Virus record (IMG/VR): IMGVR_UViG_3300023180_000001
Direction: 5' to 3' (one strand)
From: a virus
DNA length: 64,000 nt
The stretch's first letter is position 1, and every line of letters starts with the position of its first letter. Under the pieces are notes generated by a model that was not told the DNA's origin, searched no databases, and saw nothing but the letters and a program-made list of their open reading frames with translations. The translations under genes were made by a program, and so were the position numbers. This document shows, piece after piece, positions 56,488 to 57,556 of this stretch.

Positions 56488-56553
56488 TGAGCAATTTTTG
56501 CTTTTCAAGGCTTCCAATAGTTTTGAAAATAGTATTTTTGCTGTAGTTGCTCA
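56488..56553 (-). ncRNA. module U8 (short, no tRNA-like core)
   Basis: The closing helix is UGAGCAA (56547-56553) / UUGCUCA (56488-56494), with C-UACAGCAA after the 5' strand. Confidence 0.6.
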
Positions 56554-56571
56554 TTAGTTCTAAATTGTATC

Positions 56572-56635
56572 AGGGCAAATCCTAAACGTAGTTTGATTAA
56601 AAGTCAAATGTTTTGGGTATTGCTGTAGTTGCCCT
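56572..56635 (-). ncRNA. module U7: isolated tRNA-Lys-type anticodon hairpin
   Basis: The closing helix is AGGGCAA/UUGCCCU. The interior hairpin is UUUGA-CUUUUAA-UCAAA (56592-56608). Confidence 0.65.
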
Positions 56636-56650
56636 TTAAGTCTTATCTAG

Positions 56651-56676
56651 TATAGACCCTCGTTAGAAGGTCTATA
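56651..56676 (-). ncRNA. spacer hairpin S2
   Basis: An 11-bp stem (UAUAGACCUUC-UAAC-GAGGGUCUAUA, one G.U pair) is preceded by GACAUUAUCCACU and followed by CUAGAUAAGA. Confidence 0.55.
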
Positions 56677-56688
56677 GTGGATAATGTC

Positions 56689-56813
56689 AGATTACTTTAA
56701 GATTGAAGTGCTACCGTTACACCATCAGGGACGTATCCCTGAGCCGGACTCGAACCGACACCTTTTGTTTCACAAGACAAGTATAATCAAATATTTGTTG
56801 CTGTAAGTAATCT
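56689..56813 (-). ncRNA. module U6: circularly permuted tRNA-like core
   Basis: The closing helix is AGAUUAC/GUAAUCU. The core runs T arm GUCGG-UUCGAGU-CCGGC, then acceptor hairpin UCAGGGA-UACG-UCCCUGA, then D arm GUGU-AACGGUA-GCAC. Confidence 0.7.
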
Positions 56814-56825
56814 TTAACTTGTTTC

Positions 56826-56956
56826 AGGTTCCTGTTGTTTGCGTCTGCTGCTCTACCAACTGAGCTACCTCCCGTCAACGTATTATGGTCGAGAGGGCTG
56901 GACTCGAACCAGCGACCCACAGTATCCATTAGCGTTATTGTTGCTGCAAGGAACCT
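56826..56956 (-). ncRNA. module U5: circularly permuted tRNA-like core with internal ACCA
   Basis: The closing helix is AGGUUCC/GGAACCU. The core runs GCUGG-UUCGAGU-CCAGC, CCUCUCG-ACCA, an 11-nt linker, CGGGAGG-UA, the D arm GCUC-AGUUGGUA-GAGC, then GCAG pairing back to CUGU. Confidence 0.7.
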
Positions 56957-56974
56957 TTAATTCTAAATTGTGTC

Positions 56975-57072
56975 AGAGTGTCTTAATGTGCGCGGGAATC
57001 GAACCCGCTCCAGTCGATTAATAGTCGATTGCTCTACCAGTGAGCTAGCGTATAGTTTGCTGTACACACTCT
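56975..57072 (-). ncRNA. module U4: tRNA-like core in canonical order with a degenerate acceptor
   Basis: The closing helix is AGAGUGU/ACACUCU. Inside are the D arm GCUC-ACUGGUA-GAGC, an anticodon-like arm AUCGA-CUAUUAA-UCGAC, and the T arm GCGGG-UUCGAUU-CCCGC. Confidence 0.65.
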
Positions 57073-57088
57073 TTAAGTTTTTATCTAG

Positions 57089-57115
57089 TTTACACCCTCT
57101 TATGGAAGATGTAAA
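57089..57115 (-). ncRNA. spacer hairpin S1
   Basis: An 11-bp stem (UUUACAUCUUC-CAUAA-GAGGGUGUAAA, two G.U pairs) has the same flanks as S2 but a different stem sequence. Confidence 0.55.
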
Positions 57116-57127
57116 GTGGATAATGTC

Positions 57128-57216
57128 AGGCTAATTTGTTTGCACCATTGCAATCTCCTAATTGGCAGGAAATAAAGGAATCGAACCTCTAAAATTATGT
57201 TTGCTGTAGTTAGCCT
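57128..57216 (-). ncRNA. module U3: permuted T-arm / acceptor / D-hairpin core
   Basis: The closing helix is AGGCUAA/UUAGCCU. The core runs AGAGG-UUCGAUU-CCUUU, AUUUCCU-GCCAAUU-AGGAGAU, then UUGCA-AUGG-UGCAA. Confidence 0.65.
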
Positions 57217-57228
57217 TTAAATTGTATC

Positions 57229-57353
57229 AGGTTCATATTACTATGTGGCAGGTGTCCTCCCATTAGACTATCTCCGAACATCCGAACGGAGAGCCGGGAT
57301 CGAACCGACACAACCTGCTTTGGCTTAAGTAATAGGTCTGCTGTAATGAACCT
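57229..57353 (-). ncRNA. module U2: circularly permuted tRNA-like core
   Basis: The closing helix is AGGUUCA/UGAACCU and a second helix is UAUUACU/AGUAAUA. The core runs GCAGG..GUCGG-UUCGAUC-CCGGC, UCUCCG-(10 nt)-CGGAGA, then GUCU-AAUGGGA-GGAC, A, CCUGC. Confidence 0.7.
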
Positions 57354-57375
57354 TTAAATCTCTATCTTGGTGCCC

Positions 57376-57403
57376 ATTATACACACTTTGATGTAAAAGT
57401 CAA
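57376..57403 (-). promoter_or_regulatory. sigma70-type promoter inside the module array (TTGACT-16-TATAAT)
   Basis: Minus strand reads gcTTGACTtttacatcaaagtgtgTATAATggg. It is near-identical to the plus-strand promoter at 9750-9777. Confidence 0.65.
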
Positions 57404-57423
57404 GCACTTTTTAAATTATTTTC

Positions 57424-57549
57424 AGTATGCACATATCCGTCCTGACGTTCTACCATTAAACTACCTCCCCATAATGGTTATGGTGGGGCGGGAAGGACTC
57501 GAACCTCCACTATCAGGTTTAACTTAGGAAGTGTTGCTGTAGGCACACT
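57424..57549 (-). ncRNA. module U1: circularly permuted tRNA-like core with internal ACCA
   Basis: The closing helix is AGUGUGC/GCAUACU (one G.U pair). The core runs CCUGA-UAGU-GGAGG-UUCGAGU-CCUUC, CCGCCCC-ACCA, a 10-nt linker, GGGGAGG-UA, then GUUU-AAUGGUA-GAAC, G, UCAGG. Confidence 0.7.
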
Positions 57550-57556
57550 TTAAACT

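What the first reader, a model, noticed from the sequence alone, without database searches (positions are those of the whole stretch)
56488..57555. Tandem array of eight RNA modules, each closed by its own covarying 7-bp helix set in conserved junction sequence
This is read on the minus strand, between tRNA-Ser(GCU) and the promoter of the DUF2828/vWA gene. Eight consecutive units share the frame ..UUAA-[7 nt]-N-UACAGCAA ...cargo... [7 nt complement]-GA(U/C/A)A(C/A)AAUUUA...

The 7-mers differ in every unit and pair perfectly:
- U1: AGUGUGC/GCAUACU (one G.U pair)
- U2: AGGUUCA/UGAACCU
- U3: AGGCUAA/UUAGCCU
- U4: AGAGUGU/ACACUCU
- U5: AGGUUCC/GGAACCU
- U6: AGAUUAC/GUAAUCU
- U7: AGGGCAA/UUGCCCU
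- U8: UGAGCAA/UUGCUCA

Eight independent compensatory sets next to invariant single-stranded motifs argue strongly for a selected RNA fold, not a DNA repeat or coding sequence. The G.U pairs work only in the minus-strand transcript. An internal sigma70 promoter at 57376-57403 splits the array. I know of no named element with this architecture.
Basis: seen in the sequence. Interest (0 to 1): 0.92.

Follow-up and report, generated by a model that had tools for sequence, protein, structure and literature searches.

The report
Phage array of Y-RNA-like tRNA mimics
Eight small structured RNAs, each closed by the same short helix-plus-motif "frame" and most carrying a piece of tRNA, lie in a row just upstream of a phage gene for a Ro60-like RNA-binding protein. 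They look like a previously uncatalogued branch of the Y RNAs that partner Ro proteins, and the same frame turns up in many phage groups.

Summary
Eight minus-strand units (57549-56488) share the frame UAA-[7 nt]-N-U(A/G)CAGCA(A/G)-cargo-[7-nt complement]-GA. All 56 helix positions pair, and 6 of 7 pairs show compensatory change.

The gene just downstream (56421-54955, DUF2828+DUF7788, PHROG 850) models as a Ro60-like TROVE+vWA protein. Its best Foldseek hits are Thermus phage phiRo60 and Deinococcus Rsr.

Four cargoes (U1, U2, U5, U6) and a reduced fifth (U3) are tRNA-like domains in YrlA order. U4 is a tRNA body without an acceptor stem. U7 carries a tRNA-Lys(UUU) anticodon stem-loop, and U8 a plain hairpin.

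The frame recurs on the gene strand beside 76% of 115 homologous loci, against 10% on the opposite strand. It occurs in Felixounavirus, Listeria, Staphylococcus, Campylobacter and Mycobacterium phages. Rfam 15 has no family for it, and its motif differs from the GNCGAA/CGAA motif of YrlA and Yrl RNAs.

Best reading: a new variant of Y RNA. The constant frame would be a Ro-like-protein handle that displays variable tRNA mimics; eight units is the largest array seen. Protein binding, RNA processing and biological role are inferred, not shown.

The parts
57424..57549 (-). U1. Frame AGUGUGC/GCAUACU (one G.U pair). The cargo is a tRNA-like domain in permuted order: anticodon-stem-like CCUGA/UCAGG, T arm, acceptor 3' strand plus ACCA, a 10-nt loop, acceptor 5' strand, D arm. 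It lies upstream of the internal promoter and directly follows the tRNA-Ser-like gene.
   Evidence: Rfam YrlA partial match of 21 bits at 57443-57515. The T arm, acceptor and CCA match the phage's own tRNA-Tyr at 27 of 30 positions.
57376..57403 (-). Sigma-70-type promoter TTGACT-16-TATAAT between U1 and U2. It probably drives U2-U8.
   Evidence: 11 of 12 matches. The same promoter precedes the four-unit array in L121.
57229..57353 (-). U2. Frame AGGUUCA/UGAACCU, motif UACAGCAG. The cargo is a tRNA-like domain in permuted order: T arm, closed acceptor-like hairpin, D arm.
   Evidence: the minimum-energy fold shows the T hairpin and the acceptor hairpin. The orthologue in L129 has a compensatory A-U to G-C change at helix pair 1.
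57128..57216 (-). U3. Frame AGGCUAA/UUAGCCU. The cargo is a reduced tRNA-like domain made of three hairpins (T arm with GGUUCGAUUCC, acceptor-like hairpin, D-like hairpin).
   Evidence: Model R1 scores it 28.3 bits, the best hit in the window. The orthologue in L129 has two compensatory pair changes.
57073..57127 (-). Inter-unit hairpin element A: GACAUUAUCCAC, an 11-bp hairpin, then CUAGAUAA. It sits between U3 and U4 and has no frame.
   Evidence: -14 kcal/mol, z -4.1. A second copy follows U6 and a third is in L121, with compensatory changes.
56975..57072 (-). U4. Frame AGAGUGU/ACACUCU. The cargo is a normal-order tRNA body (D arm, anticodon arm with loop CUAUUAA, T arm) whose acceptor stem is degenerate.
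   Evidence: ARAGORN calls it tRNA-Asn(att) at 56984-57054. Rfam tRNA scores 47.5 bits, with non-standard pairs marked at three of the seven acceptor-stem positions. The orthologue in L129 has a tRNA-Lys-like CUUUUAA loop and compensatory changes at helix pairs 6 and 7.
56826..56956 (-). U5. Frame AGGUUCC/GGAACCU, motif UGCAGCAA. The cargo is the clearest YrlA-type tRNA-like domain.
   Evidence: Rfam YrlA 40.1 bits (gathering score 69), model positions 23-89, at 56842-56921..
56689..56813 (-). U6. Frame AGAUUAC/GUAAUCU. The cargo is a variable-arm-like hairpin, T arm, closed acceptor hairpin (UCAGGGA/UCCCUGA) and D arm.
   Evidence: minimum-energy fold. R1 scores 23.9 bits on its 5' part.
56636..56688 (-). 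Inter-unit hairpin element B, the second copy of element A, between U6 and U7.
   Evidence: -17.9 kcal/mol, z -4.8.
56572..56635 (-). U7. Frame AGGGCAA/UUGCCCU. The cargo is a single 5-bp/7-nt hairpin, UUUGA-CUUUUAA-UCAAA, which is a tRNA-Lys(UUU) anticodon stem-loop mimic.
   Evidence: 15 of 15 nt are identical to the E. coli lysT anticodon arm. R1 scores 27.3 bits.
56488..56553 (-). U8. Frame UGAGCAA/UUGCUCA. The cargo is a 7-bp hairpin with a 14-nt loop. Its 3' tail overlaps the -35 box of the gene's promoter.
   Evidence: R1 scores 22.1 bits. Conserved in L121, L129 and L130.
56452..56480 (-). Sigma-70-type promoter TTGACA-17-TATTAT of the Ro-like gene.
   Evidence: 11 of 12 matches, TG extension.
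54955..56421 (-). Gene for a 488-aa Ro60-like protein (helical TROVE-like N-terminal part plus vWA domain), the presumed protein partner of the RNAs.
   Evidence: Pfam DUF2828 plus DUF7788. PHROG 850 'RNA-binding protein'. AlphaFold model with mean pLDDT 80. Foldseek hits 9KOP (phiRo60, E 1.7e-7) and 2NVO (Rsr, E 3.9e-6).
57560..57644 (-). Atypical tRNA-Ser(GCU)-like gene that ends 10 nt before U1.
   Evidence: Rfam tRNA-Sec model 44 bits, below its threshold. Not called by ARAGORN.

Best explanation
The eight units are a tandem array of Y-RNA-like small RNAs that partner the Ro60-like protein encoded just downstream.

**Anatomy (shown).** Each unit has two parts.
- A constant frame: a 7-bp terminal helix biased to A-G-R-W-U-N-N, an adjoining G-poor single-stranded bulge that begins N-U-W-C-A-G-C-A-A, and a 3' G.
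- A variable cargo.

**Proposed mechanism (inferred).**
- The array is transcribed from the promoter at 57403-57376. U1 is transcribed with the upstream tRNAs.
- The transcript is cut in the A/U-rich linkers into RNAs of about 60-130 nt.
- The Ro-like ring protein binds the frame, as Ro60, Rsr and phiRo60 bind the stem-plus-bulge of Y RNAs. It stabilises the RNA and leaves the cargo exposed.
- The cargoes imitate parts of tRNA: the acceptor/T/D 'elbow' in U1, U2, U3, U5 and U6; a tRNA body without an acceptor stem in U4; a tRNA-Lys anticodon arm in U7.
- The set of RNPs would therefore tether, gate or decoy proteins that recognise tRNA. The most likely setting is the contest over tRNA between phage and host, that is, tRNA-cleaving defences and RNA repair.
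- In relatives where the last unit ends 12-25 nt before the start codon, the same protein-frame contact would also repress translation of the protein's own mRNA.
For: 1. **The fold is real.** Pairing is 100% with compensatory change among paralogous units and among orthologous units. A covariance model built without any window sequence ranks array units first in 64 kb.
2. **The neighbouring protein is Ro-like.** Foldseek gives probability 1.0 to phage phiRo60 (9KOP) and to D. radiodurans Rsr. Homologues in mycobacteriophages are annotated 'Ro-like RNA binding protein'. The Listeria phage homologue gave Rsr as its best HHpred match (PMC12282133).
3. **Gene and RNA go together.**
   - 87 of 115 homologous loci have at least one strict unit on the gene strand, against 12 on the other strand. 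The model adds at least 12 more loci.
   - Units sit within about 900 nt before or after the gene.
   - A motif hit upstream is accompanied by the helix in 71% of cases, against 2.9% on the opposite strand.
   - In the reverse direction, 12 of 21 helix-complete pattern hits in IMG/VR carry the gene, against 1 of 99 incomplete hits.
4. **The architecture matches Y RNAs.** YrlA and Yrl RNAs have a 5'/3' stem, a conserved motif in the bulge and a second module that is often a tRNA-like domain, and they are encoded within 4 kb on the same strand as Ro60 (PMC4201824, PMC12135203).
5. **The cargo is YrlA-like.**
   - Rfam YrlA scores 40.1 bits on U5 and 21.1 bits on U1.
   - In Mycobacterium phage Lumos the middle of three framed units gives a full-length YrlA alignment at 39.3 bits.
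6. **Other cargoes mimic anticodon arms.**
   - There are 38 hairpins with a 5-bp stem and a 7-nt YU...R loop, against 4.3 expected from shuffles. Fourteen are T loops.
   - Lys CUUUUAA or CUCUUAA loops appear in three unit groups whose stem or loop sequences differ.
   - U7 equals the E. coli tRNA-Lys anticodon arm at 15 of 15 positions.
7. **Context.**
   - The locus sits inside a tRNA gene cluster here and in relatives.
   - In the Listeria phage an RtcB ligase gene and an HD phosphohydrolase gene lie downstream.
   - Unannotated regions upstream of that gene are very highly transcribed (PMC12282133).
Against: - No binding, expression or processing data exist for these RNAs. The highly transcribed Listeria regions may be other, larger RNAs.
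- The frame motif UWCAGCAA is not the GNCGAA/CGAA motif of YrlA and Yrl RNAs, and no unit reaches Rfam's YrlA threshold of 69 bits.
- The protein is only a remote relative of Ro60. The profile E-value to 9KOP is 0.025 by sequence, and the Foldseek TM-scores are 0.52 and 0.39.
- Framed units also occur in tRNA clusters where no homologue lies within the DNA held (L013, L094, L005).
- Only 13 of 99 upstream units in relatives have a T-loop, so tRNA mimicry is not universal.
- The proposed cuts in the linkers rest on sequence composition alone.
- The decoy or tether role is an analogy, not a result.
Confidence: 0.65

Rival explanations
1. The frame is a processing cassette that has nothing to do with the Ro-like protein. 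The 7-bp helix with its conserved flanks would be the recognition site of a host or phage RNase (RNase P-like, RNase E) or of a cut-and-ligate pathway. That pathway would excise the cargoes as tRNA fragments, or mature them as permuted or split tRNAs.
For: - Units are embedded in tRNA clusters and sometimes lie far from the gene.
- A 7-bp helix followed by an unpaired purine resembles an acceptor stem.
- U1 encodes ACCA after its acceptor strand, and M. smegmatis YrlA is cut by RNase P and receives CCA (PMC4201824).
- An RtcB ligase gene lies near the Listeria locus.
Against: - Joining the unit ends cannot make a 7-nt anticodon loop. In U1 the anticodon-stem halves are 25 and 10 nt from the helix, so these are not functional permuted tRNAs.
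- The hairpin-only cargoes (U7, U8) have nothing to mature.
- A pure processing signal would not need a strand-specific link with one protein family.
- No RtcB gene was found among the window ORFs tested.
Confidence: 0.15
2. The units are cis-acting leader or trailer elements of the Ro-like gene's mRNA (translational operators, stabilisers or attenuators), not free-standing RNAs.
For: - In at least 17 relatives the last unit ends 12-25 nt before the start codon, next to the Shine-Dalgarno sequence.
- In Lumos three units lie between the stop codon and a terminator.
Against: - In the window a strong promoter (56480-56452) lies between the array and the gene, so the mRNA need not contain any unit.
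- Units lie either 5' or 3' of the gene.
- Arrays reach eight units with tRNA-like cargo, which a cis regulator has no use for.
- Units occur away from the gene.
Confidence: 0.12
3. The region holds decaying tRNA pseudogenes and recombination scars in a tRNA cluster. The similarities would be DNA-level repeats with no function at the RNA level.
For: - tRNA clusters in phages are recombination-prone and carry homing HNH endonuclease genes (54505-54888 and 51956-52414).
- Unit number differs between close relatives (8, 5 and 4 units).
Against: - Compensatory changes keep 100% pairing, and G.U pairs are tolerated only on the transcribed strand.
- The frame is conserved in phages of Proteobacteria, Firmicutes, Actinobacteria and Campylobacter, with protein identity as low as 33%.
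- There is a strong strand bias.
Confidence: 0.03

Closest known systems
YrlA-type bacterial Y RNAs bound by Rsr/Ro60 (Chen et al. 2014, PMC4201824; Rfam RF02553)
   Same: - A terminal stem formed by the 5' and 3' ends, with a conserved motif on the 5' side.
- A tRNA-like domain in the order V/T arm, closed acceptor-like hairpin, D arm.
- Encoded within a few kb on the same strand as a Ro-type gene, often with several RNAs per locus.
- Partial Rfam matches here (40 and 21 bits).
   Different: - The motif is UWCAGCAA in a bulge after a 7-bp A-G-R-W-U-N-N helix, not GNCGAAN0-1G.
- No unit reaches the family's gathering score.
- Most family members carry hairpins or anticodon-arm mimics instead of the tRNA-like domain.
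- Arrays reach 8 head-to-tail units.
- The partner protein is Pfam DUF2828, not a canonical TROVE Ro60.
Thermus phage phiLo phiRo60 with Yrl1 and Yrl2 (PMC12135203; PDB 9KOP, 9L5Y)
   Same: - A phage-encoded Ro60-like ring protein. It is the best structural match to the window protein.
- Two partner RNAs encoded directly upstream, each a 5'-3' stem flanking a bulge that holds a short conserved motif.
- Binding has been shown in vitro for that system.
   Different: - CGAA motif.
- Two RNAs rather than eight.
- No tRNA mimicry is reported in the passages I read.
- Sequence similarity of the proteins is marginal (E 0.025).
Abundant unannotated transcripts upstream of the Rsr-like gene CKA15_055 in Listeria phage CKA15 (PMC12282133)
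   Same: - The same protein family: P100-like Listeria phages hit at 33% identity.
- The authors speculated that upstream non-coding transcripts are Y RNAs.
- The related phage LMSP-25 has three framed units directly upstream of the gene.
   Different: - The paper defines no RNA motif or structure.
- The one highly transcribed region for which I found coordinates spans about 490 nt, longer than the three-unit stretch (about 270 nt), so those regions may be other RNAs.
Circularly permuted tRNA genes (Cyanidioschyzon merolae) and permuted tmRNA (recalled from my own knowledge; Rfam RF04321 for the tmRNA)
   Same: The 3' half (T arm, acceptor 3' strand) precedes the 5' half (acceptor 5' strand, D arm). 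Weak tmRNA_permuted matches occur on U1 and U5.
   Different: There is no anticodon arm to restore and no bulge-helix-bulge junction. The acceptor end is closed by a loop. These are mimics, not translatable tRNAs.
Phage tRNAs that counter tRNA-cleaving host defences, such as PrrC and PARIS acting on tRNA-Lys (recalled from my own knowledge, not checked here)
   Same: They sit in phage tRNA clusters, and the recurring cargo imitates the tRNA-Lys(UUU) anticodon arm.
   Different: Those are complete, chargeable tRNAs. Here the acceptor stem is missing or the anticodon arm stands alone inside a protein-binding frame. A decoy role is a hypothesis.

Membership tests
Y RNA / YrlA (Rfam RF02553; Chen et al. 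2014) | Encoded within about 4 kb of, and on the same strand as, a Ro60/TROVE-vWA protein gene | tested here: met
   The array ends 67 nt upstream of the gene, on the same strand. The protein is Ro-like by structure, but it belongs to Pfam DUF2828, not Pfam TROVE.
Y RNA / YrlA (Rfam RF02553; Chen et al. 2014) | Terminal stem formed by pairing of the 5' and 3' ends of the RNA | tested here: met
   A 7-bp closing helix in all eight units, with covariation. The true RNA ends are unknown.
Y RNA / YrlA (Rfam RF02553; Chen et al. 2014) | Conserved GNCGAAN0-1G (CGAA) motif near the 5' end | tested here: not met
   The conserved motif is U-W-C-A-G-C-A-A. No unit has CGAA at that position.
Y RNA / YrlA (Rfam RF02553; Chen et al. 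2014) | tRNA-like domain (T arm, acceptor-like stem-loop, D arm) | tested here: met
   Present in U1, U2, U5 and U6, and reduced in U3. Absent from U7 and U8. U4 is in normal tRNA order.
Y RNA / YrlA (Rfam RF02553; Chen et al. 2014) | Score at or above the Rfam gathering threshold (69 bits) | tested here: not met
   The best score is 40.1 bits, on U5, covering model positions 23-89 only.
Y RNA / YrlA (Rfam RF02553; Chen et al. 2014) | Physical association with the Ro protein | not testable with these tools
   Needs gel-shift assays or immunoprecipitation.
Ro60/Rsr protein family (TROVE plus vWA ring) | Helical-repeat TROVE ring followed by a vWA domain with a MIDAS motif | tested here: met
   The AlphaFold model is helical in its N-terminal ~265 residues, followed by an alpha/beta domain. 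Foldseek hits 9KOP and 2NVO cover the whole length, with vWA domains next in the ranking. The D-x-S-G-S residues are invariant in the alignment. Whether the ring closes was not inspected.
Ro60/Rsr protein family (TROVE plus vWA ring) | Match to Pfam TROVE (PF05731), or significant sequence similarity to solved Ro60 proteins | tested here: not met
   Pfam gives only DUF2828 and DUF7788. The profile against the PDB gives 9KOP at E 0.025, over the start of the vWA domain only.
Functional tRNA gene, standard or circularly permuted | A complete cloverleaf with a 7-bp acceptor stem and an anticodon arm, directly or after joining of the ends | tested here: not met
   In U4 three of the seven acceptor-stem pairs are non-standard. 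In U1, U2, U5 and U6 the anticodon loop is replaced by the frame, and the linkers are too long to form a 7-nt loop.
Any Rfam 15 family, including self-cleaving ribozymes and riboswitches | A covariance-model match over the frame | tested here: not met
   Nothing covers the frame at the gathering thresholds or at E up to 10. None appears in 12 related loci or in three GenBank phages.

The most novel reading that the evidence does not exclude
The frame is a general-purpose display scaffold. A widespread phage Ro-like protein would hold a library of interchangeable RNA modules that present isolated tRNA parts, such as the tRNA-Lys anticodon arm and the acceptor/T/D elbow. These would act as decoys or sensors against host tRNA-targeting defences (anticodon nucleases, acceptor-end toxins). 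That would make it a new class of RNA-protein anti-defence system, with array size tuned to the host's arsenal.
Probability: 0.22. Interest if true: 0.9.

Novelty: new variant of a known kind. Interest (0 to 1): 0.78.

Why it matters
**Scale.** Ro60-like "RNA-binding proteins" of the DUF2828/PHROG 850 family are encoded by hundreds of sequenced phages. They occur in 711 GenBank phage records, including Felixounavirus and P100-like Listeria phages, staphylococcal, enterococcal and Campylobacter phages, mycobacteriophages and T4-like vibriophages. Thousands more homologues occur in metagenomes. No RNA partner is defined for them.

**What the finding gives.** It supplies a concrete RNA partner that can be searched for by sequence: a 7-bp helix followed by UWCAGCAA. 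This partner is absent from Rfam, yet it lies beside most of these genes.

**What it would explain.**
- Why these genes sit inside phage tRNA clusters.
- What some "pseudo-tRNA" calls and unannotated gaps in phage genomes may be.
- It would extend the Y RNA concept from one or two RNAs per Ro protein to modular arrays whose variable part mimics defined pieces of tRNA.

**What it makes testable.** It bears directly on a long-standing question: what tRNA mimicry by Y RNAs is for. One can bind the protein to the frame, then ask which host or phage proteins each cargo captures.

Tried and rejected
- **Tandem Repeats Finder.** It found nothing in the array; the units are too divergent and differ in length.
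- **Nucleotide search against GenBank phages.** Only tRNA-like fragments matched, so no sequenced close relative is there.
- **14-base pattern scan of IMG/VR.** Most of the 120 hits were single chance matches. It became useful only after filtering for the helix.
- **Sequence search of the protein against the PDB.** Nothing by phmmer, and only a marginal hit with a profile. Structure prediction plus Foldseek was needed.
- **Literature searches.** Searches for DUF2828, 'Ro-like' plus Y RNA plus phage, and TROVE/vWA/RtcB found no description of this RNA. The 2020 Annual Review on bacterial Ro60 is not held.
- **Covariance model R1.**
  - It cannot span cargoes longer than about 100 nt, so U1 and U2 score poorly (7 and 10.7 bits).
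  - U6 is aligned to a wrong 3' partner.
  - The training alignment (MAFFT) misplaced the 3' strand in 10 of 49 sequences.
- **K-turn.** Rejected: there is no conserved G-A before the 3' strand.
- **Self-cleaving ribozyme or riboswitch.** Rejected: no Rfam match, and the conserved part is only a helix plus 8 nt.
- **CRISPR-like repeat-spacer array.** Rejected: the conserved junctions are short and the 'spacers' are self-closing structured RNAs.
- **Functional permuted tRNAs.** Rejected: see the membership test.
- **U1 as a permuted copy of the phage tRNA-Tyr.** Only the 3' half matches.

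
Full report
**1. The observation.**

Read on the minus strand, the stretch 57549-56488 holds eight consecutive units. Each unit has the same layout:
- a 7-nt strand (AG+5 nt in seven units, UG+5 nt in U8);
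- one free base;
- U(A/G)CAGCA(A/G);
- a cargo of 41-108 nt;
- the exact complement of the 7-mer;
- GA.

U1 has one G.U pair, which would be a C-A mismatch on the other strand.

The 5' UAA is invariant. After U3 and U6 a separate hairpin element of about 50 nt is inserted, and U8's tail runs into a promoter.

Chance is excluded.
- Shuffles give 0.0025-0.023 per unit for a perfect partner plus GA.
- On the eight-unit alignment all 56 cells pair, and 6 of 7 pairs change on both sides. Column shuffles give 65.5% pairing, and sliding the 3' partner gives at most 41%.
- Nowhere else in the 64-kb window is the strict pattern, with at most one G.U pair, met.

**2. What the cargo is.**

It is tRNA-like.
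- U1, U2, U5 and U6 contain a T arm, an acceptor-like stem closed by a loop, and a D arm, in that order. U3 has a reduced version. This is the arrangement of the tRNA-like domain of YrlA-type bacterial Y RNAs.
- Rfam's YrlA model matches U5 at 40.1 bits over positions 23-89 of 114. It matches U1 at 21.1 bits. Both are below the gathering score of 69.
- U4 is a normal-order tRNA body that ARAGORN calls tRNA-Asn(att). In the Rfam tRNA alignment three of its seven acceptor-stem pairs are non-standard.
- U7 is a single hairpin, UUUGA-CUUUUAA-UCAAA. It is identical over 15 nt to the anticodon arm of E. coli tRNA-Lys(UUU).
- U8 is a plain hairpin.

**3. The neighbouring gene.**

The ORF at 56421-54955 has its own strong promoter at 56480-56452. 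It encodes a 488-aa protein with Pfam DUF2828 plus DUF7788 and PHROG 850 'RNA-binding protein'.

Sequence searches of the PDB are nearly blank. An AlphaFold model built on 26 homologues has mean pLDDT 80. Foldseek places it, at probability 1.0, next to two solved Ro proteins:
- 9KOP (E 1.7e-7), the Ro60 homologue of Thermus phage phiLo;
- 2NVO (E 3.9e-6), Rsr of Deinococcus radiodurans.

vWA domains follow in the ranking. The protein is therefore a remote TROVE+vWA, Ro60-like protein.

Two outside annotations agree.
- Homologues in mycobacteriophages are already annotated 'Ro-like RNA binding protein'.
- The Listeria phage CKA15 homologue gave Rsr as its best HHpred match (PMC12282133).

**4. 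The frame is a family, and it travels with the gene.**

I collected 115 loci that encode homologues: IMG/VR contigs, GTDB genomes, Logan contigs and GenBank phages.

A strict scanner looked for:
- G at helix position 2;
- ..C.GCA. after one free base;
- a perfect 7-bp partner with at most one G.U pair within 300 nt;
- then G.

Results:
- 87 loci (76%) have at least one unit on the gene strand outside the coding sequence, against 12 (10%) on the other strand.
- Units cluster within about 900 nt before the start codon or after the stop codon.
- Non-circular test: among hits to the 5' motif alone, 71% upstream on the gene strand have the helix, against 2.9% on the opposite strand.
- Reverse test: of 120 IMG/VR loci matching the 14-base pattern TTAAAGN6TACAGCAA, 21 have the helix. 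Twelve of those carry the gene in the DNA held, against 1 of 99 without the helix.

A covariance model was built from 49 short-cargo units of other phages, none from this window or its close relatives.
- Over the whole window, its five hits with E up to 10 are U3, U7, U6, U8 and U5.
- With filters off over 54-60 kb, U4 and U2 join the top seven and U1 ranks 14th at 7 bits.
- It adds units in at least 12 loci that the strict scan missed.
- It finds the frame in several GenBank phages:

| Phage | Position of units relative to the gene |
|---|---|
| Listeria phage LMSP-25 | three units upstream, after a promoter |
| Salmonella phage Si3 (Felixounavirus) | three units downstream, among tRNAs |
| Staphylococcus phage BESEP2 | three hits downstream |
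| Campylobacter phage F356 | one hit upstream |
| Mycobacterium phage Lumos | downstream (described below) |

In Lumos three framed units lie between the stop codon and a terminator. The middle one carries a tRNA-like domain that gives a full-length YrlA alignment at 39.3 bits. That locus ties the frame directly to YrlA-type cargo.

Over 180 distinct units the consensus runs as follows:
- A/U-rich flank;
- A-G-R-W-U-N-N;
- N;
- U-W-C-A-G-C-A-A;
- a G-poor linker;
- cargo;
- an A-rich segment;
- N-N-A-W-Y-C-U;
- G.

The helix is therefore half-conserved in sequence, like the Ro-binding helix of Y RNAs, and not free as the eight local copies suggest.

Relatives carry one to seven units; eight is the largest array seen. 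Unit content changes quickly.
- The 95%-identical relative L121 has four units (orthologues of U5, U3, U7 and U8).
- The 80% relative L129 has five.
- Orthologous units in L129 show seven compensatory double changes in four helices and no disruption.

**5. Is it already known?**

- Rfam 15 has no model covering the frame. This holds in the window at gathering score or at E up to 10, in 12 related loci and in three GenBank phages.
- Full-text searches found no description.
- The kind is known, however. Chen et al. 2014 (PMC4201824) defined YrlA RNAs as a terminal stem with a GNCGAAN0-1G motif plus a tRNA-like domain, encoded within 4 kb on the strand of Ro60. They reported them in 254 bacteria and 22 phages.
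- The phiLo study (PMC12135203) showed that a phage Ro60 binds two upstream RNAs. Each is a 5'-3' stem flanking a bulge that holds a CGAA motif.
- The CKA15 study (PMC12282133) speculated that abundant non-coding transcripts upstream of the homologous Listeria gene are Y RNAs, without defining them.

The present RNAs share that architecture. They differ in the motif, in the partner's protein family, in cargo range and in tandem number.

**6. How it most likely works.**

Shown:
- the fold and the conserved frame;
- the tRNA-like cargoes;
- the Ro-like fold of the neighbouring protein;
- the strand-specific co-occurrence;
- the promoters.

Inferred:
- The array is transcribed from 57403-57376, with U1 transcribed together with the upstream tRNAs, and is cut in the A/U-rich linkers.
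- The protein binds the frame and stabilises each RNA.
- The exposed cargo engages proteins that recognise tRNA.

Support for a tRNA-centred role:
- The locus sits inside tRNA clusters.
- RtcB ligase and HD phosphohydrolase genes lie beside the Listeria locus.
- Anticodon-arm-like hairpins are enriched in cargo: 38 observed against 4.3 expected, of which 14 are T loops.
- Lys-type loops appear in three unit groups whose stem or loop sequences differ.

A decoy or tether role against tRNA-cleaving defences is attractive but untested.

In at least 17 relatives the last unit ends 12-25 nt before the start codon. That would allow autoregulation. In the window a promoter separates the array from the gene, so this does not apply unless there is read-through.

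**7. Rivals.**

- A processing cassette unrelated to the protein (0.15).
- Cis-acting leader or trailer elements (0.12).
- tRNA debris or DNA repeats (0.03).

The evidence for and against each is set out in the Rival explanations section.

The main caveat to the preferred reading is that framed units also occur in tRNA clusters where no homologue lies in the DNA I hold (L013, L094, L005). The gene may lie elsewhere on those contigs, but this was not checked.

**8. Verdict.**

- The RNA-fold interpretation is supported, but the claim of an unnamed architecture is not.
- This is a new variant of the Y RNA kind: an uncatalogued frame that accompanies a very widespread phage Ro-like protein, here expanded to the largest array seen, and displaying tRNA parts.
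- Interest is high for RNA and phage specialists (0.78), tempered by the complete lack of binding and expression data.

Noticed in passing
window 58415-58555 (minus strand): Candidate small RNA of about 145 nt between a strong promoter (58590-58563, 11 of 12 matches) and an intrinsic terminator (58437-58419). It folds into four hairpins (z -3.8), is 97% identical in L121, and has no Rfam match.
   Followed up: partly
window 57073-57127 and 56636-56688 (minus strand); L121 3738-3778: A separate conserved hairpin element (UUAUC-CAC-[11 bp]-CUA-GAUAA) is inserted after U3 and U6, with compensatory changes between the copies. It is very stable (z -4.1 and -4.8). Among the 245 loci held, it was found only in this phage lineage. 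Its function is unknown; it could be a processing site or a protein-binding site.
   Followed up: partly
window 9223-9477 (plus strand): A full-length group I intron (Rfam RF00028, 94.4 bits) lies far from the finding.
   Followed up: no
window 51021-54492 and 58321-58396 (minus strand): A cluster of about 21 tRNA genes, plus one called only by Rfam (53731-53801, 32 bits). Two HNH endonuclease genes are interspersed (51956-52414 and 54505-54888).
   Followed up: no
L168 2447-2664, L207 1840-2064, L212 2409-2659, L196 973-1184, L208 628-833: A recurrent large cargo of 183-228 nt sits inside frames whose helix is AGAGUGR. Several copies share an internal hairpin ACAUC-YUAGGAC-GAUGU. This may be a distinct larger structured RNA carried in the same frame.
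   Followed up: no
L242 (Listeria phage LMSP-25) 1008-1340 and 1424-2050: Two unannotated regions, each behind a strong TTGACA-type promoter, lie upstream of the Ro-like gene and lack the frame. They are the likelier counterparts of the very highly transcribed non-coding regions reported for phage CKA15.
   Followed up: partly
L229 4102-4500; L219 5613-6133: tmRNA genes (including the permuted type) lie downstream of the Ro-like gene in two IMG/VR phage contigs, immediately after it in L229. This is another tRNA-mimic RNA in the same neighbourhood.
   Followed up: no
Listeria phage CKA15 (PMC12282133): The homologous protein CKA15_055 was detected in purified virions (20 peptides, 57% coverage), which suggests the Ro-like protein may be packaged.
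   Followed up: no
window 57653-57784 (minus strand): A 43-codon ORF with a good ribosome-binding site lies between tRNA-Asn and the tRNA-Ser-like gene. It is conserved in L121, with at least one synonymous difference. It has no PHROG match.
   Followed up: no
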